35,465 nt of DNA from an uncultured virus (IMG/VR IMGVR_UViG_3300023065_000102) (IMGVR_UViG_3300023065_000102:1-35465), one strand, 5' to 3'; shown: positions 3,059 to 35,465, counted from the stretch's first letter. Numbers and translations are program-made. The notes: generated by a model from the letters alone, not told the origin.

Positions 3059-3169
3059 TACCAACCGGAACAGGCGCATAAGCCCCTATTTATCGAGGCT
3101 TGAGCGCCATCTCTCATTCTGGCATTAGCATATGCATGGGCGTAGATTGGCATGGAATGGCGTATGGTT

Positions 3170-7333: not shown

Positions 7334-7370
7334 TGATTTCTCCAGGGTTGGCCATATACGGCCATGAGGG

Positions 7371-8414: not shown

Positions 8415-8424
8415 GCTTACTCCA

Positions 8425-8455
8425 GAAACAGAAAGCCCCGCACGGGACGGGGCTT
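8425..8455 (-). terminator. Rho-independent terminator-like hairpin between gpX and gpD
   Basis: AAGCCCCG-7-CGGGGCTT followed by a T-rich tract on the minus strand. Confidence 0.6.
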
Positions 8456-8473
8456 CGTTACAGGTACGCGGGG

Positions 8474-8680
8474 TCAGTCGAACAGTTGCAGCAACTCGAC
8501 CGCCGGTGCCGATAGATCGGGCAACAGGATCAGCAAGCCGGCACGATAAGGCTGCGCTTGCCTGGCCAGATCCGGGTTGGCTTCCAGCACCGCCTCGACG
8601 GTGCCGTTGAGGTGCCCGTAGTGGTGCTGACAGATCACGTCGAGCAGGTCGCCGTCAGACGTTCTGCATGTCGTTGCCAT
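8474..8680 (-). CDS. P2 gpX-like tail protein
   Basis: GDLLDVICQHHYG, VLEANPDLA, LLPD. Confidence 0.92.
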   Translation of the reverse strand: MATTCRTSDGDLLDVICQHHYGHLNGTVEAVLEANPDLARQAQPYRAGLLILLPDLSAPAVELLQLFD

Positions 8681-9500: not shown

Positions 9501-9510
9501 AAGGCCCTCC

Positions 9511-12500: not shown

Positions 12501-14253
12501 TTACCGGGTCATTGGCCGATGCCGGCTCACTCGCACGGGAAGAAAACACCTTGCCTAGCAGGCCAAGCCCGGTGTCGACCACCTTGCTGCCCGTCTTGGG
12601 CAGCTCAATGGGCGCACGATCGCTGCGCCCCACTCGACCGGCCAGCCCCTCCAGGCCTCGACCGCGTGCGATGTTGAACACGCCTCGACCGATTTTCACC
12701 GCGCTAGATGCGGTCATGAACGCCAGGACCGCTGCCGTAACGCCTCCAACGCCGAGGACAAGCGATGGGAAGCTTTCCGACAATGAGGTGATGCCACGAG
12801 CAACCGACGTCAGCCCCTTAGCGGCTAGGTCGGTGGCCGGGCGGATGGCATCGCCAATGCTGCGCATGGCGTCGTCAGCCGCCTGGACCGTCTCAGCCCA
12901 CTGCTGCGCTGAGGTTTCGCGGCGCTCAGCCAGGTTCTTGTCGAGGATGCCCGAAGCCTTCTTGGAGTCGGCTTTCAACTCCTCGTACAAACCCCGGTTT
13001 TGCCCATAGGCAGTGAGAGCCGCCTTGACCTGCATGTCAGCGAAGATATCGCCGGTGCGCAGGGTCTTCTCCAGGGCCTCCAGCGCTGCCTTGGCTTTCT
13101 CCGGGTCGACTTCCTTGTCGATCTTAGCCTGGGCATCCTTGATCTTTTTGGCCTTCGCCGGGTCGGTCGCCTCGACGTATTTCATAGCCAAGGCCATGGA
13201 CGCCTCAATGACGTTCATGCCCTTCTGCAGACCAGTGTTCAGCGAGGCCTGATAATCAATGCCTACATCGCTGTAGGCTTTTTTGATATCGCCAGCGCCG
13301 ATCTTCTCCATCCAGTTCTTGAAGTTATTCGCCGCCTCGTCCGAACTACCGGCGGTCTTCATCTGGACCTGCAGCATGGAGCCCAGCGAGGTCACCGCAT
13401 CCAGGCCGGTGATACCGTTTTTCTCCATGCCGGCCAGCAGTTGCGGGAACCACTTGGCCATGTCGCTGGCTTCGAAGCTGCCCGCCTGGCCTTGGTAGGC
13501 AATCGCCTCCAGTGCCTGTTGCATGACCTTCGGATCACTGATCTTGGCGTTTTGCTCCAGCGCCTGGATCATTGATGCCGTATCGACACCCGAGGCACCC
13601 TGGCCAATGGCGAACTTGGCCGCCACCGGCGCATACGACAGCGCCTTGTCCAGTTCCATGCCGGCACCGACCAGCTGGTTGACCAGGTCGGCCACGTCAT
13701 TGCGCGCCATGCCGGTGTCTTTGGACGTGTCGATCACCGTCCGGTTAAGCTGCTGTTCCTGCGGCTTATTGACGATATCGGCCTTGATCGCAATGTCACG
13801 AATGATCGCCTGATAGTTCGCACTGATCATCGTCGGCACAGCGGCGGCGCCGGTAGCCACTACAGCCTTGCCGATGTTCGACTTGAGCGATTCCTTGCCT
13901 GCCTGCAACTGCTGGTGACCCTTTAGCTGCAGGTCAGCCGCCCTGGCCTCTCGGCCTAGACGCTGATACTCCCGACTGAGGCGGCCGACCTCGACGCCCT
14001 GCTTGCGCAAGGCATCCAGATTACTGTCCAGCTTGCGTAGCAGCTTGTCAGCACCGGCGGTGCCACTGTCATGCGCGCGCTTCCATTCCTCGCGCAGCTT
14101 GATGGTTTCGCCAATGGTACTTTTCAGCACCTTGGCTTTGTTGCCCTTGGCCTCCAGCTTCTCGATGCCGCTTTCGACCGTTTTGAATGCGGCGCCGACC
14201 GATGAGGCGACGGCGCCCCCGATCACCAGCGATAGCGCTAGCCTGCTTGCCAT
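9511..14253 (-). CDS. Tail tape measure protein with expanded Pro-rich repeat region (1580 aa)
   Basis: Position between chaperone and gpU; Ala/Gly-rich helical N-half (GQAGSFEASDMAKWFPQL), GAAIGSVVPVIGTAVGG segment. Confidence 0.92.
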   Translation of the reverse strand: MASRLALSLVIGGAVASSVGAAFKTVESGIEKLEAKGNKAKVLKSTIGETIKLREEWKRAHDSGTAGADKLLRKLDSNLDALRKQGVEVGRLSREYQRLGREARAADLQLKGHQQLQAGKESLKSNIGKAVVATGAAAVPTMISANYQAIIRDIAIKADIVNKPQEQQLNRTVIDTSKDTGMARNDVADLVNQLVGAGMELDKALSYAPVAAKFAIGQGASGVDTASMIQALEQNAKISDPKVMQQALEAIAYQGQAGSFEASDMAKWFPQLLAGMEKNGITGLDAVTSLGSMLQVQMKTAGSSDEAANNFKNWMEKIGAGDIKKAYSDVGIDYQASLNTGLQKGMNVIEASMALAMKYVEATDPAKAKKIKDAQAKIDKEVDPEKAKAALEALEKTLRTGDIFADMQVKAALTAYGQNRGLYEELKADSKKASGILDKNLAERRETSAQQWAETVQAADDAMRSIGDAIRPATDLAAKGLTSVARGITSLSESFPSLVLGVGGVTAAVLAFMTASSAVKIGRGVFNIARGRGLEGLAGRVGRSDRAPIELPKTGSKVVDTGLGLLGKVFSSRASEPASANDPVTGGGDTQRVFVVNADAIGGIGSRVANSSPAAPPSGGSRRSRRRERRRAAKQGTTARPVAKVEAPQAAMVRPQRLLAAPSAPTVGDELGKVARSVRGITRLAKRLPGGNVVDAGAAAIDVAINAKSQDEKAEGYGGAAGSLAGTLAGAAAGAAIGSVVPVIGTAVGGAVGAVLGGLGGQSLGGWLGKRWFGDESPETKAESENPTAPREALSATLQPAQERVEGKGEPSVPLPVASEPAQQPPVLVDRREPVVKSVPVSPVPELGEAVRDLVETTKPVPSPKVDKPVVAPAVQVPKPVVVDNRGPVAKPALGEAVRDLVEATKPVPSPKVDKPDVALAVQMPKPVVVDNRGPVAKPVPASPAPALGEAVRDLVEATKPVPSPKVENPDVAPAVQVPKPVVVDNRRPVAEPVPVSPAPVLGEAVRDLVEATKPVPSPKVEKPVMVPAVQVPKPVVVDNREPVTKPVPASPAPALGALMRGLVDATKPVPAPAVQVPLPLVDVSREPVPALPAPALGDAMRDLVKATKLVPVATPAVQMSEPAVVDNREPVVKPLPTSPAKLGDTGRTVATPAPVPYDPLVPESKDPYLLPALTANKVRFPGAPLVRPPAQPEPVLEPDPLPEPEPVPLPAPAPARLGDTVRAVATPAPLEPSVSNDPLDADSNDPYLLPALTANKVRFPRAPLVRPSIQSEPVPEPEPEPEPVPPLPATPAKLGDTVRAVATAVPVEPPVSYDPLDPESKDPYLLPALSANKVRFPGAPLVRPPIQPEPVPEPESEPEPEPARPLPAAPAKLGDTVRTVATPAPVEPPVSYDPLDPESRDPYLLPALTASKVRFPGAGLVPPQAHPQPAPETPPIKLGETLREVPAKSAPAPVVVDRSEPKPAGEAVPLQTAPQLATLPAGFGDVVRDMMAKATPPAPRMPELVQPAKAAAPAPAAAPQVDQAFSFSPNIKIDVQGDVKDPAQVVREIESPLRQLFEAWQREVSARMSSTQLFDQPHV
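9940..10830 (-). repeat. Four 231-237-bp in-frame tandem repeats (YDPLDPESKDPYLLPALTANKVRFPGAPLVRPP core)
   Basis: Anchor GGC(C/G)G(T/A)CAGCGCCGGCAGCAG recurs at 10021, 10258, 10489, 10726. Confidence 0.95.
10840..11780 (-). repeat. About six in-frame tandem repeats, mostly 162 bp (LGEAVRDLVEATKPVPSPKV...PAVQVPKPVVVDNR)
   Basis: Unit anchor recurs at 10925, 11048, 11210, 11372, 11534, 11675. Confidence 0.95.
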
Positions 14254-14273
14254 CGGTGCCTCCTATTGCGAGC

Positions 14274-14390
14274 TCAATCTGTGAGCCACCAGACCATGTC
14301 CGCATAGGACATGGTCATGATTTCCTCAGGCGAGAAATTCAGTTCAGCAGCAAGCCGTTTGGCGGCTTGCTTCTGCACGGCAGGATCAAA
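14274..14390 (-). CDS. gpE'-like frameshift extension of tail assembly chaperone
   Basis: FDPAVQKQAAKRLAAELNFSPEEIMTMSYADMVWWLTD* in the +1 frame relative to gpE; resembles the P2 GpE' family. Confidence 0.7.
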   Translation of the reverse strand, partial: FDPAVQKQAAKRLAAELNFSPEEIMTMSYADMVWWLTD

Positions 14391-14682
14391 ACTCGTCGTC
14401 TCGCACCAGAAAGGTGTAACCCGTCGCTACCCGGTTGTAATCCTTGTACGCCAGGCCTTCCAGGTCCCTGACGCCAACCTCGGCCAGCGAGGCGAACAGG
14501 TTCAGCTCGCGCTGCTCGTCGTCGCCGTCCGCAGTCCGGGTCGAGTTGCGGATATCGCGCACGGTTGGAGCACGCAGGGTGATGTTGTCGCATTTGATGC
14601 CGTTCAGCTCGACCGGCTTGGACAAGGCAATGGTGACGCTTTCAGCGGTCAGGGTAATGAACTTCGGCAGCGGCTTGCTCAT
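14386..14682 (-). CDS. Tail assembly chaperone (P2 gpE / Mu gp41-like)
   Basis: ITLRAPTVRD, LFASLAEV, DYNRV; between tube and tape measure. Confidence 0.9.
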   Translation of the reverse strand: MSKPLPKFITLTAESVTIALSKPVELNGIKCDNITLRAPTVRDIRNSTRTADGDDEQRELNLFASLAEVGVRDLEGLAYKDYNRVATGYTFLVRDDEF

Positions 14683-14727
14683 GGTTTTGTATCCTTGATT
14701 TGGAAGATTGAGTGGAGTGATTAGGAA

Positions 14728-15240
14728 TCAAGACAGGCCAAGGTCGCGGCGCTGGCTAGCCAGCTGGTCGACGCCGTTGATCACACGGGTCATGCCAACC
14801 GGGTCGATCTCGTAAATGACCTCGCCGCCGACTTCGAGCTTGTAGTAGGTCACGGCAATGGCGTGCTTGAGTTCGGCCTTGTCGCCGGCCTTCCAGTCAC
14901 CCATGTCGATCTCTTTGAGCGTGCCGCGCAAGGTAACGATGACCGGCTTGGTTTCACCCTTCTGGATCTTGTAGGTGCCACGGAACACACCGTTGAAAGC
15001 ATTACCGTCGGCCAGGCCGAAAAACTTCAGCGATTCCTTGCGCTGGCCGGTGGTGGTGAAGTTGGCTTCCATCTTCTCCATGCCCATGTCCAGCTCGATG
15101 GGGATATCCATCCCGCCGGCACGGTGCTCCTCGGTCTTGAGCGTGAGCTTGGGCAGGGTCAGGTTGGGGACGTCGCCGTTAAAGCTGATGCCATCCACGA
15201 ACAGGTTCAGGTTGGCCAGTGTTTCGGGAATCATTGCCAT
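14728..15240 (-). other. Major tail tube protein (P2 FII-like)
   Basis: LTLPKLTLKTEEHRAGGMD, EIDMGDWKAG, INGVDQLA. Confidence 0.95.
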
Positions 15241-15252
15241 GTGATGCGCTCC

Positions 15253-16422
15253 TTAGGCGGCTTGGTCGAGGACTTCGGTCAACCACTGGTTGGTGATTTC
15301 GACGCGGAAATTGGGGTTTTCAGCCGGCGGAACGTCGGTAAAGCGGATGTTCCAATACACCTTGCCCTGCTCCAGCGCGCTGACTGTGTTGAGGGCCTGG
15401 TCGGCGTAGACTTCAAAGTTGATGATTGCGCCCTGGGCTTTCAGGTCGCGCATGAAGGACTGCAGGCCCTCGGTTACGTCGCGGACGTAGGTCGAGGTGA
15501 TCGCGCGGTCAACCGCCCACTTGTGGCCGTACAGAATCGCGTCCATGACCATGTCCATGGTCCGCACGCGAGTGACAAACGCCCACTTGGTATCGCTCGA
15601 CAGCGTGCGGTTGCCCCACAGGCGGAAACCGTCGTCGCGGATGATGGTCGCGATATTGGCGTTGTTGAGCAGATTGGCCCGGCAGGTCTCGTCGCCGTCC
15701 AGGTACTCGATGGCGCGGCCGGTACCGGTGATGCCGACGAACTCCTTGTTCGATGGCGAGGCCCAGAAACCGTATTCGCTGTCGGTGTAGGCAAACACGC
15801 CAGCGGCCCAGGCCGACGCCGGTGCATCGACAGTCGCATTGGCCGTGCTGTCCCACTGCTGCACACCCGGATCGACCATGTACAGACGCTTGGAGCCGAA
15901 CAGCTTGGCATAGGTAGTAGCCGCCTCGTCGGTGGTACCAGGCCCGTCGATGATGGCGATAGCACGCAGCTTGGCCGCAATCGAATCCATGGCAGTGGCC
16001 ACCGCCTGGGTCGCGCTGTGCTTGGGCGCCACGATGATGCGCGGCTGGGCGTTGAAACGGCTCTTGCCGTCGAGCAGCGCCTGCAGCCCGGTACGCCTGC
16101 CATTGGCCTGCACTCCACCAATGATCGCCGAGGTCTGTGCTGCAGCGTCGGCGCCCTTGGCCACACCGGTGGCGACAATGACCGCCTTGGAGCGAGCATA
16201 GATAGCCTGGCAGGCCTTGGTGATAGCAGCCGTTGCGCCAAAGGCGGCAATCGCCTCGTTCTCGCTGGTGATCAACACCACGTCACCGACCTTGGCCGAC
16301 ACGTTCGCGCCCTCGGTAAAGGTGTCCACCAAGCCAATGATCGAGGACGACGGCAGCGAGAGATTGCGCGCGCCGGCGTCGATGTTCGTTACGGTAACGC
16401 CGTGAAAGAAGTTTGCAGCCAT
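15253..16422 (-). CDS. Contractile tail sheath protein (P2 FI-like)
   Basis: FFHGVTV, GFWASPSNK, GFRLWGNRT, FTDVPPAEN. Confidence 0.96.
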   Translation of the reverse strand: MAANFFHGVTVTNIDAGARNLSLPSSSIIGLVDTFTEGANVSAKVGDVVLITSENEAIAAFGATAAITKACQAIYARSKAVIVATGVAKGADAAAQTSAIIGGVQANGRRTGLQALLDGKSRFNAQPRIIVAPKHSATQAVATAMDSIAAKLRAIAIIDGPGTTDEAATTYAKLFGSKRLYMVDPGVQQWDSTANATVDAPASAWAAGVFAYTDSEYGFWASPSNKEFVGITGTGRAIEYLDGDETCRANLLNNANIATIIRDDGFRLWGNRTLSSDTKWAFVTRVRTMDMVMDAILYGHKWAVDRAITSTYVRDVTEGLQSFMRDLKAQGAIINFEVYADQALNTVSALEQGKVYWNIRFTDVPPAENPNFRVEITNQWLTEVLDQAA

Positions 16423-16485
16423 TTGAAACTCCAGAATGCACAGGGCCGCGTCATGCGCGGCCCGAGGATGGGAGAAATGAAACCG

Positions 16486-16809
16486 TCAGCGCTGCAGGAT
16501 CTGCAGCACCTGGACCAGCAGCGCCACGATCAGGCAGGCCACCAGGGGATAGAGGAAGTCGAGGCGCCCGTCAGGCGTCCATCGCCAGATACGCAGGCCG
16601 TCGTACCAGCGCAGATTGGCCAGGTGCACCGACTCGGCGTGCGCCAGGTTGCGCTCGCCTTGGGTGTACTCGCGGCCAGCGAAAAAGAAGATGCCGGCAG
16701 CGGCGCCGGCCCAGTGGCCAGCCGGTACGCCCAGCAGGGCCAGGCCGCCCCACAGGACAGCCATGATCAGCAACGCCGCAAGGACATGCTCAAGGTGGGT
16801 TCGGTTCAT
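16486..16809 (-). CDS. Phage membrane protein of unknown function
   Basis: 107 aa, three hydrophobic segments, GREYTQGE motif, GGAGG RBS. Confidence 0.7.
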   Translation of the reverse strand: MNRTHLEHVLAALLIMAVLWGGLALLGVPAGHWAGAAAGIFFFAGREYTQGERNLAHAESVHLANLRWYDGLRIWRWTPDGRLDFLYPLVACLIVALLVQVLQILQR

Positions 16810-16826
16810 ACGTGCCCTCCAGGCAC

Positions 16827-16846
16827 AAAAAAAGCCGCATGGCGGC
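16827..16846 (-). terminator. Rho-independent terminator-like hairpin after tail fibre genes
   Basis: GCCGC-3-GCGGC followed by T7 on the minus strand. Confidence 0.6.
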
Positions 16847-16874
16847 CTTGGGTGGTCAGTGGATTAAGGAGGTG

Positions 16875-17339
16875 TCAGACGGGACCGTCGACGCCGTCAA
16901 TGCTGGCTTGGATGGTGGCAATGGCCTCGTCGACGATGGCTTCCATGGCGACATGGCTAGGCGCCTTGAGCAGGTCCTGCTTGCCCTTGAGGCGTGCGGC
17001 ACGGATCGCGTACAGGGCCAACTGCCAGGCCTGCGCCTTGGCCAGAATGCTCTCGGTGGCGGCCTGGGCGTCGAGGTCGGCGGCATCCATCCAGGCCTGC
17101 ACACTGGGCGGGGCCTCGCCAGTGTAGTTGGCTTGGGCAAATGCCTCGGCCTCCGTGGCGGCGGTCTGGTGCTCCAGGGCGCGCAGGGTATCGCCGGTAA
17201 GAACACGGCGCGCCGCATCCGCAGCCTGGTCGACCTGCTCGCTTGCGGCCACCCGCGCGGCGCCGAGAGGTAAGGCAGCGAAGTCGAAGCCAACATACTG
17301 CTGGCCGTTGTAGATGACGTTGATTTCAGCGGTTTTCAT
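16875..17339 (-). CDS. Tail fibre assembly/chaperone-like protein
   Basis: Follows fibre genes; VDQAADAAR, PPSVQAW, IRAARLKGK. Confidence 0.7.
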   Translation of the reverse strand: MKTAEINVIYNGQQYVGFDFAALPLGAARVAASEQVDQAADAARRVLTGDTLRALEHQTAATEAEAFAQANYTGEAPPSVQAWMDAADLDAQAATESILAKAQAWQLALYAIRAARLKGKQDLLKAPSHVAMEAIVDEAIATIQASIDGVDGPV

Positions 17340-17348
17340 GAGGGGTCC

Positions 17349-18113
17349 TTACAGGGTGGCCAGGTTGGTGAGAATACGGGTTAGCGTCTTGACGTCAGTG
17401 CCGGCGGCGATACCGTCGATATAGCGGCCAGCGAAGTCGCTCGGGAAACTCACGGCGCCGCAGCCCAGGGCAACGCACGACGACGGCGCACTGACGAGGT
17501 AGCCCACGAAGTCGGCGGCCTTCTGCACGGTTACGGCGTTCATCTGAATACCCATCAGCGGCGGCACCGAGAAACTGCCGTAGGTACGCAGGAAGCTGTT
17601 CATGCGGTTAGACACCACGGTCGGGGTAACACCCGCCGGCGATGGCAGGGAAATAGTCAGGCCGCGCAACTCGATGTTGGAGGCTTGCCGCTGCAGCGCG
17701 AAGCCTCCAAGGCGGGTTTCCAGTGGGCTTTGAGGGTTGGCTGAGTCGGACAGCTGCTGGAAGTACTTGGCGCGCAGGACCTCGACGCCAGTCGCGCCGC
17801 TAACCACCACCACCGCGCAGGTGCAGTTGACCTGACGATTCAGGTCGTAGTCCTTGAGCAGGTACATGTTGCACAGCCCCGACGACGGGGTCGCCGCAAT
17901 GGCACGCTCGATGGTCTTGAACGGTGCGGCCAGGGTGCCCGCGTTGGTGTCCAGACCGATCACCGGGTCAACGTACCAGTCGCGGGTGGTTTCAGGGACG
18001 GCGGCGATAGCGGCGTTTACGGCCGACTCAATGCCGGCCTTCTTGGTGTTGAAGTAGTTCAGCAGCGCGCGGGCTTCGGTGGTCAGGTTGGCTACTTCGG
18101 ATTCGAGACTCAT
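17349..18113 (-). CDS. Putative distal tail fibre / receptor-binding protein
   Basis: N-terminal coiled coil MSLESEVANL, WYVDPVIGLDTNAGTLAAPFKTI motif; position in fibre cluster. Confidence 0.65.
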   Translation of the reverse strand: MSLESEVANLTTEARALLNYFNTKKAGIESAVNAAIAAVPETTRDWYVDPVIGLDTNAGTLAAPFKTIERAIAATPSSGLCNMYLLKDYDLNRQVNCTCAVVVVSGATGVEVLRAKYFQQLSDSANPQSPLETRLGGFALQRQASNIELRGLTISLPSPAGVTPTVVSNRMNSFLRTYGSFSVPPLMGIQMNAVTVQKAADFVGYLVSAPSSCVALGCGAVSFPSDFAGRYIDGIAAGTDVKTLTRILTNLATL

Positions 18114-18119
18114 GGGGTT

Positions 18120-18986
18120 TTAAGCTCCGTGGATTTGTGTAACGACTAGGGTCTGCAGCGCAATAGTGGCTGCAGCATTGGATACGATTGCGCTCAGCAA
18201 GCCCTCGCGGTCAGCGTCTTGACGCTGCTCGGCGGCCCTCATGCGCAGCAACAGGTGGGCGATCTGTTCGCCAGCAATGCGCTGCAGCTCAGCCTCAGCG
18301 TCGGCCGCATCCTGCTGTTTCAGGGCGCGCAGCTGCTCCGCAAGCAAGGTCGCGCCCTGGGTGGCATTCAGCTCGGCGAACATCTCGCGGTCGGCATCCT
18401 GGCGCCGTTCGGCGGCCTTCATGCGCGGCGCCAGGTCGTTGATCTGCTCGCCGGCAATGCGCAGCTTTTCCGCCGCCTGCTCAATCGCGTCACCGCGTTT
18501 CAAGCCGCGCAACTGCTCAGCGATCAAGGCCGCCGCCTCAGCGGCCAGCGGCTCGGCAAGGCTCAGGCTCAAGCCCGCCTCACCGCTGACGATGGTCACG
18601 CTATTGGCCGGCAGCGCAGCCAGCGACAGGTCGTAGGCCAGCAGCACGTCGGTATTGGCTGACTTGTAGGTCAACGCCTCGGTGGGGTGCGACCAGACCG
18701 CCAGCAACGTGCCGTCGCTCAGCAGAAAGCCGACCTCACGCACCCAGAATGCCCGCGTGCCATCGGCCAGCGCGGTCAGGTGCAACAGCGTGCTGCTCAG
18801 GCGCTCGCCACCGCTGATAGGGTATTTGGCCACCTGGTTGACCAGGCTTTTCTGCCCGTCGTCGGGTGTATATCCCGTGCTGCCCAGGGCGATATGGGTG
18901 ATCTGCGCCGCGATACCGGTGTTGTCGGCGCGCAGGATGGCCGCAAGGCCCGCCTTGGTGATCACAGGTTGTAACGGTGTACTCAT
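18120..18986 (-). CDS. Proximal tail fibre (tail-collar fibre, P2 gpH N-terminus-like) with duplicated coiled coil
   Basis: ITKAGLAA, ITHIALG, WVREVGFLLSDGTLLAVW; follows gpI. Confidence 0.82.
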   Translation of the reverse strand: MSTPLQPVITKAGLAAILRADNTGIAAQITHIALGSTGYTPDDGQKSLVNQVAKYPISGGERLSSTLLHLTALADGTRAFWVREVGFLLSDGTLLAVWSHPTEALTYKSANTDVLLAYDLSLAALPANSVTIVSGEAGLSLSLAEPLAAEAAALIAEQLRGLKRGDAIEQAAEKLRIAGEQINDLAPRMKAAERRQDADREMFAELNATQGATLLAEQLRALKQQDAADAEAELQRIAGEQIAHLLLRMRAAEQRQDADREGLLSAIVSNAAATIALQTLVVTQIHGA

Positions 18987-19705
18987 TGCACAGCCTCCAT
19001 CAGCACCCGCAGCACTGCCCGCGCACGGGTAGCACAGGCGACCTGCAGGCCCGATTCAGCATTGATGGGGATGCCCTGCGCCTCGGCATAGAGCCGAGAC
19101 AGGCACCGCGTATTGGCGGCATTGGCCAGCAACAGGCTTTGCTGGCAGAGCGGCATGGGTACCGGCTGGGCCTCGACCAGGCGCCGCTGCAGCGCTCGGC
19201 CCCGCGAGGCGTTGGCCAGCAACAAACCGCCATCGAAGCGCGCCCCCAGGCGAAAGTCGTAGTGGCTGCGCTCGTTCTTCGCCGCGTCGATCAGGGCACG
19301 CAAGCGCTCCCCCAACTGCGGCGAGATAATCGAGCCCTCCCCCTCGCGATTCTCGTTCGCCCAGGCCGTAACCTGAAACGTGTACGGGGCTGCGTTCGGG
19401 ATCTGGTGCCACTCCTTGAAATCCGCGTTGACCCGCACGGCCTTGAGCACCCGCCGGATCGCGCCGACGGTGCCCTTGGTCTTGTGGACCGGAATGGCCT
19501 CGCGGATCAGCTCACGGCGCTGGGAGTCGGCGTTGGCTGCCTCCCAGCCCTCGACCTTCCAGGCCCAACCGAGCCAGGGAAGGAAGTTGGGCGGGCAGCG
19601 CGCCGAGTCGGCAACCCCCCGGATGATTTCCGGGTCAATGCCCTGCTCGCTGGCCGCCTCCAGCGAACGCTCCAGCAACGTGGCGTTCTGCGGCAACAGG
19701 CTCAC
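18983..19705 (-). CDS. P2 gpI-like baseplate/tail protein
   Basis: SLLPQNATLLERSL, CPPNFLPWLGW, HKTKGTVGAIRR. Confidence 0.93.
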   Translation of the reverse strand: MSLLPQNATLLERSLEAASEQGIDPEIIRGVADSARCPPNFLPWLGWAWKVEGWEAANADSQRRELIREAIPVHKTKGTVGAIRRVLKAVRVNADFKEWHQIPNAAPYTFQVTAWANENREGEGSIISPQLGERLRALIDAAKNERSHYDFRLGARFDGGLLLANASRGRALQRRLVEAQPVPMPLCQQSLLLANAANTRCLSRLYAEAQGIPINAESGLQVACATRARAVLRVLMEAVQ

Positions 19706-20682
19706 ATTGCCACCTGTGTGGTCAGCGCAATGGACGTGCAGTTGGGGTAATGCCGCTTATCGCACACCACCCCGTCAGCCGGGTGGGTCAGGTCCACCTT
19801 GCTGATGCCCGTTACGTGTAACGCCGCGTAGATGGCCGAAAGCGGCAGCTGCCCCTCCAGACGCCTGGCCTCGGCAATCGCCACATCCAGACCTTGCCGG
19901 GCCGAAGCTTTGACCACTGCCGGGTCCGGCCCTGCCTCCACATGCAGGACGGCCTGCACCTTGAAGTCACTGGGTGCACCGTTCTGCACGCGCGGGCGGT
20001 CTGTAATCGGCCGCACGCTCTCAGCAGACAGCGCCGCCTGGACCGTGGCCACCAGTTGCTCCGCAGGCGTGGTGCTGGCTGTTGCCGCCAGAATGGCCAG
20101 TGACACGTCACCGGGCAGCGGACTGGCCAAGCCGGCGTCGTAGTTGCAGACCACCACCATGGCGCCATCCGGCAGCAACGCCTTGACCTCGGCGCTGACC
20201 GGCACCCCGGAAAACCGGGGGGAATCAACCGAGACATGCACCAGGTCGGCCGATGAACTCAGCGCGTGGTATTCGTAAGCCCCGCTGCTGCCGGCGACCG
20301 ACAGCGCTTCCAGTGACAGCCGCGTGCGGTAGCGCAGCGCCTCGTCACCCTCCATCACCGCAGCCACAGGCGGCACCGCATCGGGGTCGGCGGCACGTAT
20401 AGTCAGCCGCTCGACGCCATAGTCAGCCGCCCGGTTGTCCAGGTCAGCCCCCTTGGCGTAGGCCAGCGTGCTGGCCTTGGCGGCCGCGTTGACCCGTGCG
20501 CGCATCAGCATCTCCCGGTAGGCCATGACCTCCATCAGCTTGACCACCGGATCGGACTCCAGCAGCGCGGTCCACTGATCGCCCATATGGGCGCGGAAGA
20601 TGCTCAGCACATCCTGATACAGCGTCTCAAACTCCAGGGTTTCCACCACGTCGGGCGGGGGCAGCAAAGAAAGATCGATCAT
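19702..20682 (-). CDS. P2 gpJ-like baseplate protein
   Basis: IDLSLLPPPDVVE, LESDPVVKL, LSVAGSSGAYEYHA, VRPITD. Confidence 0.95.
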   Translation of the reverse strand: MIDLSLLPPPDVVETLEFETLYQDVLSIFRAHMGDQWTALLESDPVVKLMEVMAYREMLMRARVNAAAKASTLAYAKGADLDNRAADYGVERLTIRAADPDAVPPVAAVMEGDEALRYRTRLSLEALSVAGSSGAYEYHALSSSADLVHVSVDSPRFSGVPVSAEVKALLPDGAMVVVCNYDAGLASPLPGDVSLAILAATASTTPAEQLVATVQAALSAESVRPITDRPRVQNGAPSDFKVQAVLHVEAGPDPAVVKASARQGLDVAIAEARRLEGQLPLSAIYAALHVTGISKVDLTHPADGVVCDKRHYPNCTSIALTTQVAM

Positions 20683-21005
20683 GCGCTTACCTCCAGTACG
20701 GCAGCGTTGCCCAGGTACTCGCCCGTCAGCTGCAGGGTGATCTGGCCGCCGACCACTGCCGTGACCCGAACCCGCTCAAGCTTCAAGCGCGGCTCCCAAC
20801 GGCCCATCGAACGCGCCACCTCCGCCTGTACGGCGCTTTTCCAGCCCTCGTTAACCGGCAGGTCGACAAAGCGCCGTAGGTTGCTGCCGTAGTCGGGCCG
20901 CATGCGCCGACTGCCCAAGGGGGTGGTCAGAATGTCCTCAATCGACTGTCGCAGGTGGTCGAGGCCCGTCAGTGGCTGGCCGGTTTGCCGGTCCAGGCCA
21001 ATCAT
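20679..21005 (-). CDS. P2 gpW / gp25-like baseplate wedge protein
   Basis: HLRQSIEDILTTPLGSRRMRPDYGS, RWEPRL; start MIGLD at 21005. Confidence 0.95.
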   Translation of the reverse strand: MIGLDRQTGQPLTGLDHLRQSIEDILTTPLGSRRMRPDYGSNLRRFVDLPVNEGWKSAVQAEVARSMGRWEPRLKLERVRVTAVVGGQITLQLTGEYLGNAAVLEVSA

Positions 21006-21007
21006 GG

Positions 21008-21256
21008 TTAGCCGTCCAGGCGCTGCAGGTCGGCATGGCCACCCAGGAACGCCAGCGCTTCGTCGTCGTCGCCCTGGACGGTCACGCGGTGGGCCAACAC
21101 CTTGAACTCGCGCAGCTCGCCCCCCGCCTGCAGAAACAGGGAGCGCGAGGCATAGGCGCTGTCGGTGAAGGTCACGTCGGCCGGCGTGACAGGTCCCATC
21201 GCGGAGCCGGCCGCATCCGTTGCCGCGTCGTCCGCAGCGGTTTTCTTGGTCGCCAT
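21008..21256 (-). CDS. Small phage hypothetical protein upstream of gpW
   Basis: 82 aa from MATKKT, CTGGAG RBS, FTDSAYASRSL. Confidence 0.7.
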   Translation of the reverse strand: MATKKTAADDAATDAAGSAMGPVTPADVTFTDSAYASRSLFLQAGGELREFKVLAHRVTVQGDDDEALAFLGGHADLQRLDG

Positions 21257-21276
21257 AAGGCAATGCTCCAGATACG

Positions 21277-21298
21277 AAAAAGCCCGCGATAGCGGGCT
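21277..21298 (-). terminator. Rho-independent terminator-like hairpin after the spike-gene remnant
   Basis: AGCCCGC-4-GCGGGCT followed by T tract on the minus strand. Confidence 0.65.
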
Positions 21299-21299
21299 G

Positions 21300-21317
21300 T
21301 CAGTGTTTGTGGTTTGC
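21300..21317 (-). pseudogene. Probable last five codons of baseplate spike gpV (ANHKH*)
   Basis: GCA AAC CAC AAA CAC TGA: terminal HxH as in P2/Mu-type spikes, exactly where gpV should end upstream of gpW. Confidence 0.7.
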
Positions 21318-23213
21318 CCGAGCCTTCCATGGTCGAGTGGAACAGGATCGCGGTGTCCAGCTTCGCGCCCATATGCTGCAGCGGGAACGCCAGCCACTTC
21401 ACCAGCCAGTCCAACGCCTCGGCGTCATGGTTGCAAAGGAACGAGATCAGCCAGCGCAAGTTCTCGCACGCAGCGTCGTCGCGGGCCGGCTCAAGCGGCA
21501 AACCCTCGAATGTGTTGATGTAAATCGCCGGATCCTTGGTCATCGTCGGGTCGAACACGATGTGGTCAACGTCCACTACACGCCGATCCGGACTGTTCAG
21601 CCAGAGCTGATAGGCATCGCCCAAGGCCATCTTCACGCTGCCCTCGGGCAGACGGCGCTTCTTTTCACGATCCCAGGCCTCTTTCGTGCCGTCTATGTAG
21701 ATGTAGCGGTCGAGCGGCTCCAGCTTCAGCGTGCCGCCCTTCTTGCTGGACATCTTTCGGGCCTGCTCGAGCTCTGCCACCTGCTCGGAGGCGATAAGCT
21801 TCTTGTCGGTCCGCTCCATCCACTCTTTTGCGAGCGGCTTGCCGACCAGGGCCTCGAAGCCTGTTCGCTTCATCGAACGCCCCTTGTCCAAGTCCCACAC
21901 GTTGGTGGTGCATTCGACCAGGGCAAAGCGGCGCATCGCACCGTCAACGTCCAGGGTGGTACCCCCTGCCCCCCCGTTGGCCGAGGAGCCGGCCGGGCTG
22001 GGCGCCTCGACGTCCGATGGGGCGTGGGGAAGGTGATCGATATCGGCGTCGACGACGGGCTGCTGCTCGGCCGGCTCGGCTGCCGATGGGGTACGGGGAA
22101 GTTCGCCCAATGGAGGCGGTTCCGGTGGACGGGATTTCGCGTCAATGCCGAGGATCTGTGCCGCCGCTCTGGTCGCAGCCTTCTGGTCGCCATCGTGCAT
22201 CAGGATGCAGAACACGTCGAACGCGTCGTTCTTGTGCCCGTTGGCCAGGGGATCAGAAGTGTGATGCGAGTAAAGTTTGCGATCTTTGATCGTCACACCT
22301 GGCAGCCCTGAGCTGCTGTGCGGGCTCAACCATTTCCCATCAATGCGCTTGTAACCATGCGCCTCGATCATCGTGGCGATGTCATGGACCCGGTTGAATT
22401 CGGGAATGACTTCAGGGAGCCGGTCACCAGATCGTGCAGCAGCTGGTGATGGCCGGGCCACGGGACGAGCTGCAGCCGCAGGTGCTGCCGCCTTCGGCTT
22501 CCAAGGGCAAACAGCCTCCCCCTTCGGTTTGAATTCGTTCCACCCCTGCCAGATGCCCAGCAGGTCAGCCGGCAACTCGGGCAGCCCCTCAGCAGTCGGC
22601 GGTGTACGCCACGTGTAGGGTTTACGAGTGCCTGGGTGAATGGATGGCGGCAAGACGTCCTGCACCAGGCCGCCCCGCAGCTCGAAAACCGTCACTTTCT
22701 TGAAGGGCTCAGCCGCCATGCGAAAAGCCGCCTCGCGGGCAGCATCGTCTTCGTCCTGCGCGGCCTTCACTTGCGCCATGAGCCCCTTGTAGATGGTGCC
22801 ATCGGGGTCGTTTTTGTTCGGCCACACCAGGGCGTGGCGAGTCAGCTCCACACCTTCAGGAACGCGGAACATCACGCGGAATCGTTCAGGGTTGCCTACT
22901 GAGGTCGGGTACGCATCAGCGAGCGCGTCAACGTCGAGCCCAAGGGTCTGCTGCAAGACCTGCCGGGCCAGCTCAACGTCATCTACGTCGAGCGAGCAGG
23001 CACGACTCGGCCCGAGCACAACACCAAGGTTGTGATTCGGGCTCGCAGTCCAGAACGCTTCAGCCTTCGAGGCATCCGTGAAATAGCCACCAGGCTTGTT
23101 CCAGCCGGCACCCTTCGGACCCTTCTCACCTGGTTCAATGGGAACCAGGGCAAGATCGAAGGCATCAATGTAGCGCCGCGCCCAATCAGCTGTGGTAGAG
23201 GATGGGCGATCAC

Positions 23214-23417
23214 TCATCTCCGACGCTCCCGCAACTGCTGGCAGCTGATGCAAGTCTCGCACCCCGCCACCAGCAGCTGACGCACCTCCGGGATTGGTTC
23301 ATCGCAGTCTTCACAGAACTGCGCACTCGGCTTCGTCACTGGGCGAATGCGGCGTTGAAGGGCTACCTGCAGGTGATAGTCGGCTTGGTCGTTGGCCACA
23401 TCGATCACATCAGCCAT
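23214..23417 (-). CDS. TraR/DksA C4 zinc-finger protein
   Basis: MADVIDVA, CEDCDEPIP..R..CETCISCQ. Confidence 0.92.
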   Translation of the reverse strand: MADVIDVANDQADYHLQVALQRRIRPVTKPSAQFCEDCDEPIPEVRQLLVAGCETCISCQQLRERRR

Positions 23418-23898
23418 GAGCTTCGTCCTCCATGGCTTGGCGGGCACCCGCCATGATTGCCAGCACCTGACGGATAACATCCATCCCGCGCTGTTCGAGG
23501 TCGACCACTTCACCAGCCGTCCAGACATTGTCGGCGGCGCCTTCGTGCAGGCTACCGACGAACTCACTGGACTCTTCAAGGAGCTTGGCTACTGCCTGCA
23601 GCGCTTCATTAGTCGCTGGGACCGGCTCCGGGCGATACCAGACAGCACCGGCCGGACGGACCAAGGCATCAAGCAAACGCGGGTCAGCGGTCCAGCGGAC
23701 GATTTCTTCGATCTCGTCCGGGCTTGGCCAGCGGCGCTCTTCGGTAGGGTGGAGTTTCTTCTGCAGGGCATCCACGTCCATGACCATATCGAAGGCCAGC
23801 TTTGTGATACCGCCGTGATAGTCGCGACCGGCGCGGTAGAGCGCCTGCCGCAAGGCGAGAACCGGACCTGCATCCGGCAGTAGATCAATGCGACTCAT
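23410..23898 (-). CDS. Phage regulatory CII-family protein
   Basis: YHGGITKLAFDM..LQKKL HTH-like; position after cro. Confidence 0.75.
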   Translation of the reverse strand: MSRIDLLPDAGPVLALRQALYRAGRDYHGGITKLAFDMVMDVDALQKKLHPTEERRWPSPDEIEEIVRWTADPRLLDALVRPAGAVWYRPEPVPATNEALQAVAKLLEESSEFVGSLHEGAADNVWTAGEVVDLEQRGMDVIRQVLAIMAGARQAMEDEAHG

Positions 23899-24024
23899 AA
23901 CCGTAAATCCTCGGTTTACGGTGTAGCCAGAGAATGAGGTAGGACCTATCCTACAGCTACGACCGTACTGTGCTGTGCGTCGTCGTCGCTGGGCCAGGGA
24001 GGTGAGAGTCCCTGGTCCAGCACC

Positions 24025-24249
24025 TTATTCCTTTGCTTGCCTCAAATACGCCCAATCAATGTCCGGTCGCAGCGCTTCACAACGAATCGCCCCTTCCGTT
24101 TCTCGATCCAGGCAAACAGCCAATCCCGCACTAGCGCGGCGGTTGCCGTAGGCGACTTGTTTCAACTGCCCAACAGACGTTCCGCAACGTTTCGCGAAAG
24201 CCTCGAGCCCTTCCTTGTCCATCGTCTTCAAAAACTCGCTAAGCGTCAT
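24025..24249 (-). CDS. Cro/YdaS-family regulator
   Basis: FAKRCGTSVGQLKQVAYGNR HTH, LRPDIDWAYLR; divergent from repressor. Confidence 0.9.
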   Translation of the reverse strand: MTLSEFLKTMDKEGLEAFAKRCGTSVGQLKQVAYGNRRASAGLAVCLDRETEGAIRCEALRPDIDWAYLRQAKE

Positions 24250-24271
24250 AGACTCCTCCATTGGCGGCTAG

Positions 24272-24327
24272 ATTAGCAATTGCTAATTCGCAAGGCAATA
24301 GCAAGTCGTAATTTACTGTTTGCTAAC
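24272..24327. promoter_or_regulatory. OR-like repressor operators
   Basis: Perfect palindrome ATTAGCAATTGCTAAT (24272-24287) plus degenerate copies at 24297-24312 and 24312-24327 between cro and cI. Confidence 0.8.
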
Positions 24328-24346
24328 GGAAAGCAATCATCTCCAC

Positions 24347-25051
24347 ATGGATATCAACGAAAGGCGTATCGCCTCCCTCCGTACGATCATGGGTGCACTG
24401 AGCCAGAAGGAATTCGCTGAGGCTTACGACCTAGACGCGTCGTACCTGTCACAACTGCTCAACGGCCATCGCAAGCTGGGGGAAAAGGCTGCGCTAAATC
24501 TGGAGCTCAAGATTGGGCTCGCGGCAGGGACGCTGACATCTCCTCCCTCCGAGGAGCCATCCACCGCAGCCCCAGACAACGTGGTTCGCCTGCCCACCAG
24601 GGCGGCAAAGGACAAGAACTTCGTGCTGATTCCGCACCTCGATATCGCGGCGTCTATGGGGCATGGCAAGGCAGCCCCAGGTATGCACATTGAAGTCATC
24701 CGCGACATGACGGTTCACCTCGACTGGCTCAGGATGCAGGGCCTGAGCTTCTCGAATGTCGACAACTTGGCCATCATCACAGGAGATGGCGACAGCATGT
24801 CTGGCACGTTCGCCGACGGCGATGCTCTGCTTGTGGATCGTGGGATTTCCGAGGTGAAAACAGACGCGATATACGTCTTCACCCTCGAGGGCGATCTCTA
24901 CATCAAACGCCTTCAGCGCCTTACCGGAGGCCAGTTGCGAATGATCTCCGACAACCCCATCTACCCACCGATTACCATCGATGAGTCGATGATCGAGCGC
25001 ATGCATATCCAAGCCCGCGTCCTGCTGGCCTGGAACGCGAAGAAGCTCTAA
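24347..25051 (+). CDS. CI/PrtR-like repressor (HTH + S24 peptidase)
   Basis: SQKEFAEAYDLDASYLSQLLNG HTH; ASMGHG cleavage-region motif, GDSM serine, YIKRL lysine. Confidence 0.95.
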   Translation: MDINERRIASLRTIMGALSQKEFAEAYDLDASYLSQLLNGHRKLGEKAALNLELKIGLAAGTLTSPPSEEPSTAAPDNVVRLPTRAAKDKNFVLIPHLDIAASMGHGKAAPGMHIEVIRDMTVHLDWLRMQGLSFSNVDNLAIITGDGDSMSGTFADGDALLVDRGISEVKTDAIYVFTLEGDLYIKRLQRLTGGQLRMISDNPIYPPITIDESMIERMHIQARVLLAWNAKKL

Positions 25052-32210: not shown

Positions 32211-32211
32211 A

Positions 32212-33844: not shown

Positions 33845-35465
33845 ATGAATAAAGCAATTTCTGATCTCTCCGCACACACCCCGATGATGCAGCAGTACTG
33901 GAAGCTGAAAAACCAGCACCCGGACCAGCTGATGTTCTACCGCATGGGCGATTTCTACGAGATCTTCTACGAAGATGCGAAGAAAGCCGCAAAACTGCTG
34001 GATATCACCCTGACCGCGCGCGGCCAGTCGGCCGGCCAGTCCATCCCCATGTGCGGCATTCCGTTCCATTCGCTGGAAGGCTACCTGGCCAAACTGGTCA
34101 AGCTCGGCGAATCGGTGGTGATCTGCGAACAGATTGGCGACCCGGCAACCAGCAAGGGCCCGGTAGAGCGCCAGGTGGTGCGCATCATCACCCCCGGCAC
34201 GGTCAGCGACGAAGCACTGCTCGACGAGCGCCGCGACAACCTGATTGCCGCGCTGCTGGGCGATGAACGCCTGTTTGGCCTGGCGGTGCTGGACATCACC
34301 AGTGGCAACTTCGGCGTGCAAGAGATCAAAGGCTGGGAAAACCTGCTGGCCGAGCTCGACCGCCTCAACCCGGTCGAACTGCTGATCCCCGACGACTGGC
34401 CACGCGACCTGCCGGCCGAAAAACGCCCTGGTGCGCGCCGCCGCGCCCAGTGGGACTTCGACCGCGATTCGGCGCGCAAGGCCCTGTGCCAGCAATTCGC
34501 GACCAAGGACCTCAAAGGCTTTGGCTGCGACAAGCTGACCCTGGCCATCGGCGCCGCCGGTTGCCTGCTGACCTACGCCAAGGAAACCCAGCGCACCGCC
34601 CTGCCGCACCTGCGCAGCCTGCGCCACGAGCGCCTGGACGACACGGTCATCCTGGATGGCGCCAGCCGCCGCAACCTGGAGCTGGACGTCAACCTGGCGG
34701 GCGGGCGCGACAATACCCTGCAGTCGGTGATCGACCGCTGCCAGACCGCCATGGCCAGCCGCTTGCTGACCCGCTGGCTGAACCGCCCACTGCGTGACCT
34801 CAAGGTCCTGCAGGCGCGCCAGGATTCGATCCGTTGCCTGCTCGACGGCTACCGTTTCGAAAAACTGCAGCCGCAGCTCAAGGAAATTGGCGATATCGAG
34901 CGGATCCTCGCCCGTATCGGCCTGCGCAATGCCCGCCCACGCGACCTCGCACGCCTGCGTGATGCCCTCGGCGCCCTGCCCGAGCTGCAAAACGCCATGG
35001 CCGAGCTGGAAGCCCCGCACCTGGCACGCCTGGCCGCCATTACCGGCACCTACCCAGAGCTGGCCAGCCTGCTGGAGCGGGCGATCATCGACAACCCGCC
35101 CGCGGTAATCCGTGACGGCGGCGTGCTCAAGGCCGGCTACGACAATGAGCTGGACGAGTTGCTGGCGATCAGCGAGAACGCTGGCCAGTTCCTGATCGAC
35201 CTGGAAGCCCGTGAAAAAGCCCGTACCGGCCTGGCCAATCTCAAGGTCGGCTACAACCGCGTGCATGGCTACTTCATCGAGCTGCCGACCAAGCAGGCCG
35301 AACAAGCCCCGGGCGACTACATTCGCCGCCAGACCCTCAAGGGTGCGGAGCGCTTCATCACCCCAGAGCTCAAGGCGTTCGAGGACAAGGCACTGTCGGC
35401 CAAGAGCCGCGCCCTGGCCCGCGAGAAGATGCTTTACGATGCCCTGCTCGAAACCCTGATCAGCC
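33845..35465 (+). CDS. mutS: DNA mismatch repair protein MutS (partial, runs off window) with prophage-supplied N-terminus MNKAIS
   Basis: [40 protein letters not shown]; missing from the ORF track because it has no stop in the window. Confidence 0.99.
33863..33885 (+). repeat. Right att core, 23 bp
   Basis: Exact direct repeat of 3026-3048, inside mutS codons 7-14. Confidence 0.95.

What the first reader, a model, noticed from the sequence alone, without database searches (positions are those of the whole stretch)
21277..21335. Deletion scar: helicase Walker A joined to the last five codons of the spike gene, a snapshot of phage-to-tailocin decay
Seen on the minus strand: ATG GAA GGC TCG GGC AAA CCA CAA ACA CTG A reads MEGSGK in the primase frame and GCA AAC CAC AAA CAC TGA (ANHKH*) in another frame, followed by a terminator and the gpW cluster. 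No terminase, portal, capsid, holin, tail-completion or full gpV gene exists in the element. Established: P2/Mu spikes end in an iron-binding HxH motif, and mutS-cinA is a tailocin hotspot in Pseudomonas. Inference: one deletion through GGCAA microhomology removed replication, packaging and head genes and placed tail and lysis genes downstream of the CI-controlled cro operon, a tailocin-like circuit that still has int/att. Loss of the spike probably makes the particle non-functional unless complemented.
Basis: partly seen in the sequence, partly recalled or inferred. Interest (0 to 1): 0.8.

Follow-up and report, generated by a model that had tools for sequence, protein, structure and literature searches.

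The report
Deletion scar in a mutS prophage
A Pseudomonas prophage sitting in the start of the mutS gene lost about 11.5 kb in one clean deletion that fused its primase to the last codons of its tail-spike gene, leaving a headless, spikeless, holin-less remnant that is a broken phage rather than a working tail-like bacteriocin.

Summary
On the minus strand, a Prim-Pol/helicase gene is cut right after the GSGK of its Walker A motif (last native base 21313). It runs straight into GCAAACCACAAACACTGA (21317-21300), the conserved 3' end (ANHKH*) of the gpV spike gene, then that gene's hairpin, a conserved 82-aa ORF and gpW.

Intact relatives carry both genes in the same order, 11.4-11.7 kb apart. 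That interval holds the helicase half of the primase, a Q-like ORF, the holin, terminase, portal, protease, capsid, neck, a PA0615-type collar and the spike. None of these is left in the window. All 17 remaining tail and lysis genes are full length.

The junction is bridged by an independently built contig of a public run and sits in a second, identical contig, so it is not an assembly error. I found it in no other record.

The element (about 30.8 kb) is bounded by a direct repeat of the first mutS codons and keeps int and xis. Its tail genes are collinear with the P. aeruginosa R-pyocin cluster, but it lacks three parts that cluster keeps: holin, collar and spike.

Verdict: a recent, microhomology-mediated deletion in a prophage. 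The "tailocin circuit" reading is unsupported. Interest is modest.

The parts
21313..21318 (-). Deletion junction. GGCAAA is shared by the primase parent (GGC AAA of GSGK) and by spike variants that read ACG GCA AAC.
   Evidence: homology ends at 21314/21313 and begins at 21317. (run X1 loose end at 21318 continues into an intact spike). (L016 has GCAAAC).
21172..23262 (-). Truncated primase-helicase: 650 native residues (Prim-Pol, ending G647-S-G-K650) plus 46 out-of-context residues.
   Evidence: (intact relative has 937 aa: Prim-Pol 28-232, DUF5906 P-loop domain 643-751, Pox_D5 839-884). (relatives have open frames of 944-951 aa).
21300..21317 (-). Remnant of the gpV spike gene: last five codons plus stop (ANHKH*).
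   Evidence: The upstream gene in relatives carries PF04717 and PF21930 and matches PDB 4s37 at E 1.3e-65 and 3qr8.
21271..21298 (-). Hairpin plus T run that follows the spike gene in relatives (terminator-like).
   Evidence: conserved in relatives. (a like hairpin sits at the same place in an R-pyocin cluster record).
21008..21256 (-). Conserved 82-aa ORF between spike and gpW (phrog_7077, function unknown).
6210..21005 (-). Retained late genes: gpW, gpJ, gpI, two fibre genes, fibre-assembly gene, 107-aa membrane ORF, sheath, tube, gpE, tape measure, gpU, gpX, gpD, GH19 endolysin, Rz/Rz1.
   Evidence: All 17 are full length against G001.
23214..25051 (.). Immunity and early region: S24 repressor (24320-25051, +) divergent from YdaS/cro-like (24025-24261), CII-like (23410-23898) and TraR zinc finger (23214-23579), all on the minus strand.
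   Evidence: Same order in phage PG1.
29690..31101 (+). Excisionase (29690-29884) and tyrosine integrase (29854-31101).
   Evidence: The integrase family lies beside mutS in 36 of 37 loci.
3019..3061 (+). attL: the native mutS start (ATG TCA GAT CTC TCC GCA CAC ACC CCG AT) followed by phage sequence and a stop.
33856..33898 (+). attR inside the live mutS gene. The 23-nt identical core is GATCTCTCCGCACACACCCCGAT. The 5' side is phage-supplied (ATG AAT AAA GCA ATT from 33845).
   Evidence: MutS domains.

Best explanation
The window holds a temperate myophage of the Pseudomonas putida group, with a lambda-type head and an R-pyocin-type contractile tail. It is integrated by its own tyrosine integrase into the first codons of mutS. 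One illegitimate deletion of about 11.4-11.7 kb, between two copies of a short repeat (GGCAAA, or less if the parent used another Ala codon), removed everything from the P-loop of the primase-helicase to the sixth-last codon of the spike gene. The losses are the helicase domain, a probable late antiterminator, the holin, terminase, portal, protease, decoration and capsid proteins, the head-tail joining proteins, the collar and the spike. What remains is a grounded prophage. It still has repressor, cro, int, xis and att, so it can probably be derepressed and excise. It cannot replicate, package, lyse through its own holin or build a complete tail. The tail genes are intact most likely because the event is recent. 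Shown: the junction, the parental sequences, the lost gene content and the element borders. Inferred: the mechanism of deletion, its recency and the lack of function.
For: Junction: blastn to phage isolates ends at 21314/21313.

Intact relatives: two IMG/VR relatives are collinear with the window on both sides, with homology breaking at 21314/21313 and resuming at 21317. Between those points they carry 11,400 nt and 11,736 nt. Over the whole element this is the only large gap against the 43.6-kb record G001, apart from a diverged immunity region, the fibre tip, tape-measure repeats and end cargo. An isolate contig in run X4 is 97% identical over 21314-23500 and has 11,659 letters where the window has 198.

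Primase integrity elsewhere: 4 of 5 relative records have an uninterrupted primase frame of 944-951 aa. All 10 mutS-side loci that reach far enough have the primase contiguous across the Walker A.

Spike in relatives: 14 of 14 informative IMG/VR relatives have the spike upstream of the 82-aa ORF.

Deleted content. None of the 17 proteins from the interval matches the window (best E 0.11). Searches of the window for PF04717 and PF16085 found nothing.

Not an artefact: a 1,247-nt contig of run X1 spans 21033-22279. A separate 11.4-kb record is 100% identical over 7,669 nt including the junction.

Borders: direct repeat at 3019-3061 and 33856-33898. In genome G009 the same repeat bounds 40.5 kb, and a further gpJ lies outside attL. 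That fits 30.8 kb plus the deletion. CheckV rates the window's record 79% complete.
Against: Only contigs, not raw reads, could be laid. X1 may be the sample the window came from, and the identical second record may come from the same population, so independent replication of the junction is not proven. The host genome is not held (the record is a 35-kb virus contig), so a spike, collar or holin supplied from elsewhere cannot be excluded. All retained tail genes are intact, which would also fit selection to keep them. A terminator-like hairpin sits at the same place after the spike gene in an R-pyocin cluster record, so the hairpin alone does not argue against read-through from the early operon. 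The length of the microhomology depends on an unknown parent: 8 of 11 relatives have GCC, not GCA, at that codon.
Confidence: 0.82

Rival explanations
1. Incipient tailocin. The deletion put the tail and lysis genes under the repressor-controlled early-right operon, so SOS induction now yields tail particles. The missing spike, collar and holin are supplied by another element in the cell.
For: The S24 repressor and cro lie upstream and in the right orientation. All 17 late genes are intact. The hairpin after the spike is also present in an R-pyocin cluster record, so it need not block expression. Endolysin and spanins are retained. The locus is the known tailocin hotspot.
Against: Spike, collar and holin are absent, while the collinear R-pyocin cluster keeps all three. 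The Q-like ORF next to the holin is also deleted (a lead only). No resident tailocin lies at the usual place: attL is 1.3 kb from cinA, whereas in G007 and G009 a further gpJ lies beyond attL. The allele occurs in 2 records only and in 0 of the species-representative genomes, so there is no sign of retention over time.
Confidence: 0.07
2. Recombination between two neighbouring elements (a tandem lysogen, or a prophage next to a resident tailocin) rather than a deletion inside one prophage.
For: Related genomes do carry a prophage and a second tail cluster side by side at this locus (passages of PMC4684702 on strain BW11M1). Locus L029 looks like such a scrambled product. The outcome would look the same.
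Against: The tail, lysis and cargo genes all lie inside the att repeat. Both halves show similar divergence from one intact phage, G001: about 84% on the early side and 78-83% on the late side. Every informative close relative of the tail module is a phage with a spike, and those with enough upstream sequence also have neck and head genes. This route also needs a much larger deletion.
Confidence: 0.06
3. Assembly chimera: the two halves belong to different molecules.
For: The window is a metagenome contig. Related strains with an intact spike and an intact primase occur in the same or similar runs.
Against: A 6-nt overlap cannot join contigs in a k-mer assembler. A separately built contig of run X1 bridges the junction by 280 and 960 nt. 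A second record is identical across it. Depths either side are alike, 5.5-10.6.
Confidence: 0.02

Closest known systems
R-type (R2) pyocin cluster of Pseudomonas aeruginosa (record OQ658366.1; PDB 6u5b, 6u5f, 3j9q, 4s37)
   Same: Gene-for-gene collinear tail and lysis module, and part of the regulatory module: PrtN-like, TraR zinc finger, gpW, gpJ, gpI, fibre N-terminus, sheath (74% identity; E 1e-192 to PA0622), tube, gpE, tape measure, gpU (Ripcord PA0626), gpX, gpD and GH19 lysin. No head or packaging genes.
   Different: The pyocin cluster keeps the holin, collar PA0615 and spike PA0616, which the window has lost. The pyocin has no integrase, att or primase fragment and sits next to anthranilate-synthase-type genes, not mutS. 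The window has an extra 82-aa ORF where the pyocin record has a 152-nt spacer.
Intact IMG/VR relatives G001 (43.6 kb, CheckV 100%) and G003
   Same: Same early region (primase 85-88% identical), same tail and lysis module (about 78-83% nt), same order and orientation.
   Different: They carry the 11.4-11.7 kb that the window lacks. Their integrases are only about 30% identical, so they integrate elsewhere. Immunity region and end cargo differ.
[quoted passage not shown] 2015, PMC4684702; passages read)
   Same: A prophage with an Rp1/Rp2-clade tail lying next to mutS in the P. putida group.
   Different: It is described there as a prophage. I saw no deletion scar reported in the passages read, and I could not compare sequences.
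Phage PS17 (sheath record D26449.1)
   Same: Closest cultured-phage sheath, 73% identity. It is the classical relative of R pyocins (passage of PMC4684702).
   Different: Only a 1.7-kb fragment is on record, so genome organisation is unknown.
Defective ('grounded') prophages in general
   Same: Internal deletion of lytic functions with retention of immunity, integration and accessory genes.
   Different: Here the event is resolved to the base and both parental sequences are available in relatives. (The general concept is recalled, not taken from a call.)

Membership tests
R-type tailocin | Central spike (gpV / PA0616) | tested here: not met
   Only 5 codons plus the stop remain. PF04717 search of the window found nothing. 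tblastn with the G001 spike found nothing.
R-type tailocin | Collar / tail-end protein (PA0615 type) | tested here: not met
   The homologue in G001 matches 6u5f 'Collar PA0615' at E 4e-34 and lies in the deleted interval. No match in the window.
R-type tailocin | Sheath, tube, baseplate wedge, hub, tape measure, fibres | tested here: met
   Full length against G001.
R-type tailocin | No capsid, portal or terminase genes | tested here: met
   Pfam scans of the large ORFs. 0 of 17 interval proteins matched.
R-type tailocin | No integrase; fixed in the chromosome (as stated in passages of the Carim et al. preprint) | tested here: not met
   Integrase, excisionase and an att repeat are present.
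R-type tailocin | Lysis cassette with holin, endolysin and spanins | tested here: not met
   GH19 endolysin and Rz/Rz1 are present. The holin PF16085 lies in the deleted interval of G001 and is absent from the window.
R-type tailocin | LexA-like repressor controlling the cluster | tested here: inconclusive
   An S24/HTH repressor is present and divergent from cro. Control of the tail genes was not tested.
R-type tailocin | Release of bactericidal particles | not testable with these tools
   Needs induction, EM and killing assays.
Integrated temperate phage (prophage), defective | Bounded by att repeats, with int and xis at one end | tested here: met
Integrated temperate phage (prophage), defective | Collinear with complete phage genomes | tested here: met
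   (G001)..
Integrated temperate phage (prophage), defective | Loss of functions needed for a lytic cycle | tested here: met
   Helicase domain, terminase, portal, capsid and holin are lost.
Microhomology-mediated deletion | Both flanks contiguous with distant sites of one parental molecule | tested here: met
   (X4 contig).
Microhomology-mediated deletion | Short direct repeat at the two break points, one copy kept | tested here: inconclusive
   6 nt (GGCAAA) if the parent's spike read ACG GCA AAC, as in L016 and the X1 variant. Only 2 nt uninterrupted if it read GCC, as in 8 of 11 relatives. The actual parent is unknown.

The most novel reading that the evidence does not exclude
The G001-type phages are gene-for-gene collinear with the R-pyocin cluster and, in this branch, carry an integrase specific for the first codons of mutS. 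On this reading they are the living source of the mutS-cinA tailocins, and the scar is a caught first step. The remnant is still SOS-inducible, transcribes its tail genes from the early operon through the conserved post-spike hairpin, and is completed in trans (spike, collar, holin) by a related element in the same cell or community.
Probability: 0.08. Interest if true: 0.65.

Novelty: new member of a known kind. Interest (0 to 1): 0.3.

Why it matters
It is a base-resolved natural example of how one illegitimate deletion can strip the head, packaging and replication modules from an R-pyocin-type phage at the locus where Pseudomonas tailocins accumulate. It also shows why most such events are dead ends. 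This one removed the holin, collar and spike, which the working pyocin cluster keeps, so a successful tailocin needs more precisely placed losses. The side observations may be more useful than the scar itself. They are the attachment site in the first mutS codons, the integrase family found beside mutS in 36 of 37 loci, and the collinearity of these phages with the R-pyocin cluster. Together they give a concrete, testable reason for the hotspot.

Tried and rejected
- The junction pattern gave 0 hits in genome contigs. In metagenome contigs and viral contigs it hit only the window's own record and one other.
- The sigma-70 scan found no promoter-like site in 20600-24400, not even at the repressor/cro divergent region, so it says nothing about a promoter for the tail genes.
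- I first took the hairpin after the scar as an argument against read-through. I dropped this after finding a like hairpin at the same place in an R-pyocin cluster record.
- The 82-aa ORF and the neck protein have no solved relatives. The 82-aa ORF has no Pfam family.
- A search for papers on PA0615 and PA0616 gave only expression studies, nothing on whether they are essential (listing only).
- Runs X2 and X16 cover parts of the stretch. No listed piece of either bridges the junction, and the lists are cut, so no conclusion on absence can be drawn.
- The closest mutS-side genomes (G006-G009) have a gpJ only 47-55% identical. No mutS-integrated relative with the same tail module was found, and the intact comparators integrate elsewhere.
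- A satellite reading (an element that borrows a helper's heads) was considered and dropped. There is no replication function and no small terminase, and the structure is explained by simple collinearity with one gap.

Full report
**The observation.**
The sequence is as described. On the minus strand, the 696-aa ORF 21172-23262 carries a Prim-Pol domain and reads ...HSTMEGSGK. The lysine codon ends at 21313. One base out of frame, GCA AAC CAC AAA CAC TGA occupies 21317-21300. A hairpin with a T run follows at 21298-21271; it folds at -15.4 kcal/mol with z = -3.2. Then come an 82-aa ORF (21008-21256) and gpW (20679-21005). The primase frame does not stop at the scar. It runs on for 46 meaningless codons to 21172.

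**What the two halves are.**
In an intact relative the primase has 937 aa: Prim-Pol at 28-232, a P-loop domain (DUF5906) at 643-751 and Pox_D5 at 839-884. GSGK is therefore the Walker A at the very start of the helicase domain, and the window keeps residues 1-650 only.

The gene upstream of the 82-aa ORF in relatives is a 200-aa protein with the gpV OB-fold and a beta-helical trimerisation domain. It matches PDB 4s37 at E 1.3e-65 and the P2 gpV entry 3qr8 at E 1.7e-15. 4s37 ends ...NSNHHTH and the relative ends ...NTANHKH.

In the first alignment, 6 of 8 relatives end ...AAC CAC AAA CAC TGA followed by the same hairpin. The two exceptions, L005 and L013, have an extra roughly 390 nt between the spike and the 82-aa ORF. 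A scan of 15 loci found the spike end plus hairpin in 11, all ending NHKH*. Of 16 IMG/VR loci, one is the same allele as the window and one has no upstream sequence. The other 14 all have the spike upstream.

**Size and content of the deletion.**
Four of five relative records carry an uninterrupted primase frame of 944-951 aa, 78-88% identical to the window's 650 residues. The fifth is an incomplete provirus.

In two of these records, homology to the window breaks at 21314/21313 and resumes at 21317. The intervening sequence is 11,400 nt in L022 and 11,736 nt in L023. An isolate contig in run X4 is 97% identical over 21314-23500 and has 11,659 letters where the window has 198.

In G001 the interval encodes the following:
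- the helicase part of the primase;
- small ORFs, one of which resembles antiterminator Q clusters (feature score 0.94, a lead only);
- a holin of family PF16085;
- small and large terminase, head-tail adaptor and lambda-type portal;
- ClpP-type protease, decoration protein D and major capsid protein E;
- head closure and tail-completion/neck proteins;
- a homologue of the R2-pyocin collar PA0615 (6u5f, E 4e-34);
- the spike.

None of these 17 proteins matches the window; the best E-value is 0.11. Family searches of the window for the spike and the holin found nothing. All 17 retained late genes are full length against G001. Across the whole element this is the only large gap relative to G001. 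The other unmatched stretches are the immunity region, the fibre tip, tape-measure repeats and end cargo.

**Real or artefact.**
A 1,247-nt contig of public run X1, built by a different assembler, covers 21033-22279 with two differences and so bridges the junction. Depths on either side are similar. A separate 11.4-kb viral record is 100% identical to the window over 7,669 nt including the junction.

X1 may be the window's own sample, and the second record may be the same population, so this rules out misassembly but does not show spread. A degenerate junction pattern found nothing in 185,579 species-representative genomes. In the metagenome collection it found only the window's own record.

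Run X1 also holds a contig that leaves the window at 21318 and continues into an intact spike (...AAC ACG | GCA AAC...). Run X16 has contigs that leave at 21314 and continue the primase. With that spike variant, and with L016, the two parents share GGCAAA. With the GCC codon seen in 8 of 11 relatives, the shared run is shorter.

**Borders of the element.**
A 43-nt direct repeat lies at 3019-3061 and 33856-33898, with a 23-nt identical core. The right copy is inside mutS. The left copy is the native start, ATG TCA GAT CTC TCC GCA CAC ACC CCG, followed by foreign sequence and a stop. On the right, the phage supplies a new start, ATG AAT AAA GCA ATT. The element is therefore about 30.8 kb. It carries xis and int, with an AriA/AriB-like pair between int and attR.

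Integrase relatives lie next to mutS in 36 of 37 genome loci from Pseudomonas, Stutzerimonas and Azotobacter. The 37th contig ends too soon. The window's MutS is 97% identical to P. putida-group strains. Ten of ten such loci that reach far enough have a primase continuous across the Walker A.

In genome G009 the att repeat bounds 40.5 kb and a second gpJ lies just outside attL. G007 shows the same layout across two contigs. Resident tail clusters therefore sit outside the att-bounded prophage. In the window attL is 1.3 kb from cinA, so the tail genes belong to the prophage and no resident tailocin is present at this locus.

**Comparison with a tailocin.**
The tail module is of the R-pyocin lineage. 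The sheath matches PA0622 at E 1e-192, gpJ matches PA0618 and gpU matches Ripcord PA0626. An R-pyocin cluster record (OQ658366.1) is collinear with the phage family in this order: PrtN-like, TraR zinc finger, holin, collar, spike, W, J, I, fibre, sheath, tube, E, tape measure, U, X, D, lysin. The pyocin is thus this kind of phage minus replication and head genes, but it keeps the holin, collar and spike. The window's deletion took all three.

That a spike is needed to build a P2-type baseplate and tail is recalled textbook knowledge, not tested here.

**Regulation.**
The tail genes do now lie downstream of the cro-CII-TraR-primase' operon, which faces an S24 repressor. Whether transcription reaches them is unknown. 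The hairpin after the scar looks like a terminator. However, a like hairpin sits after the spike gene in the R-pyocin record, so it is evidently compatible with a tail operon. The likely native late activator, the Q-like ORF, is deleted. The promoter scan was uninformative.

**Most likely story.**
A recent illegitimate deletion at a short repeat grounded the prophage. The mechanism could be slippage or end joining; this is inferred. On derepression the element may excise but cannot replicate, package, lyse through its own holin or make a complete tail.

Rivals, with my odds:
- an incipient tailocin completed in trans, 0.07;
- recombination between two neighbouring elements, 0.06;
- a chimera, 0.02.

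Locus L029 (P. parasichuanensis, integrase 90% identical) shows another, more scrambled remnant at the same site. There a full sheath gene abuts the C-terminal half of a spike, followed by gpW and a short gpJ. This suggests decay is the common fate at this site.

**Literature.**
I read passages, not whole papers.
- mutS-cinA is described as a hotspot for tailocins and prophages (Carim et al. preprint 10.1101/2020.05.27.113977; Mavrodi et al. 2009, PMC2647930).
- Ghequire et al. 2015 (PMC4684702) describe a prophage with an Rp2-branch tail between the tailocin and mutS in P. putida BW11M1, and related prophages elsewhere.
- Four searches turned up no description of an attachment site in the first mutS codons of Pseudomonas, and none of a scar like this one. 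Supplements were not opened and may hold relevant tables.

**Limits.**
No raw reads, no host genome and no expression data were available. The intact comparators with the same tail module integrate elsewhere (integrase about 30% identical). The mutS-side genomes checked have other tail modules (gpJ 47-55% identical).

Noticed in passing
window 3019-3061 and 33845-33898: The prophage integrates in the first codons of mutS. The native start and promoter are left behind at attL, and the live gene gets a phage-supplied start (MNKAI- in place of M-) and upstream region. Integrase relatives lie beside mutS in 36 of 37 loci across Pseudomonas, Stutzerimonas and Azotobacter. This may explain the hotspot and could affect mutS expression.
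   Followed up: partly
window 31161-33522 (-): An AAA_21 ATPase plus a DUF4435 protein, best PADLOC matches AriA and AriB (PARIS-type defence pair). They lie between int and attR.
   Followed up: partly
window 3437-6029 (+): Cargo at the other end of the prophage: a RelA/SpoT-domain protein (4995-6029; PADLOC candidate PDC-S33) and two ORFs without any family. G001 carries different cargo here.
   Followed up: no
window 9511-14253 (-), repeats 9955-11750: The tape measure has 1,580 aa with two sets of tandem repeats (units of about 231-237 nt and about 162 nt) rich in Pro, Val and Ala. The R-pyocin record's tape-measure gene is 2,226 nt.
   Followed up: no
L029 2889-5838: Another remnant at the same att site in P. 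parasichuanensis: a full sheath gene directly followed by a 135-aa spike fragment (beta-helix domain only), gpW, a short gpJ and a fibre gene starting inside its N-terminal domain. No early genes are present.
   Followed up: partly
L022 4280-4867: The ORF just upstream of the holin in the intact relative (phrog_4300) resembles antiterminator Q clusters by language-model features (0.94). This fits a Q-dependent late operon that reads through the hairpin after the spike.
   Followed up: partly
window 21008-21256; L075 14171-14322: The 82-aa ORF (phrog_7077) is conserved between spike and gpW in this phage family. The R-pyocin record has only a 152-nt spacer with the hairpin there.
   Followed up: no
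window 16486-16809 (-): A 107-aa ORF rich in hydrophobic stretches (probably a membrane protein; phrog_1443) lies between the fibre-assembly gene and the sheath gene. It is 91% identical in G001 and absent from the R-pyocin record.
   Followed up: no
window 25766-26104 (+): A PrtN-family protein (PF11112) sits in the repressor-side operon, 32% identical to the PrtN-position gene of the R-pyocin record. Its role here (activator or excision helper) is open.
   Followed up: no
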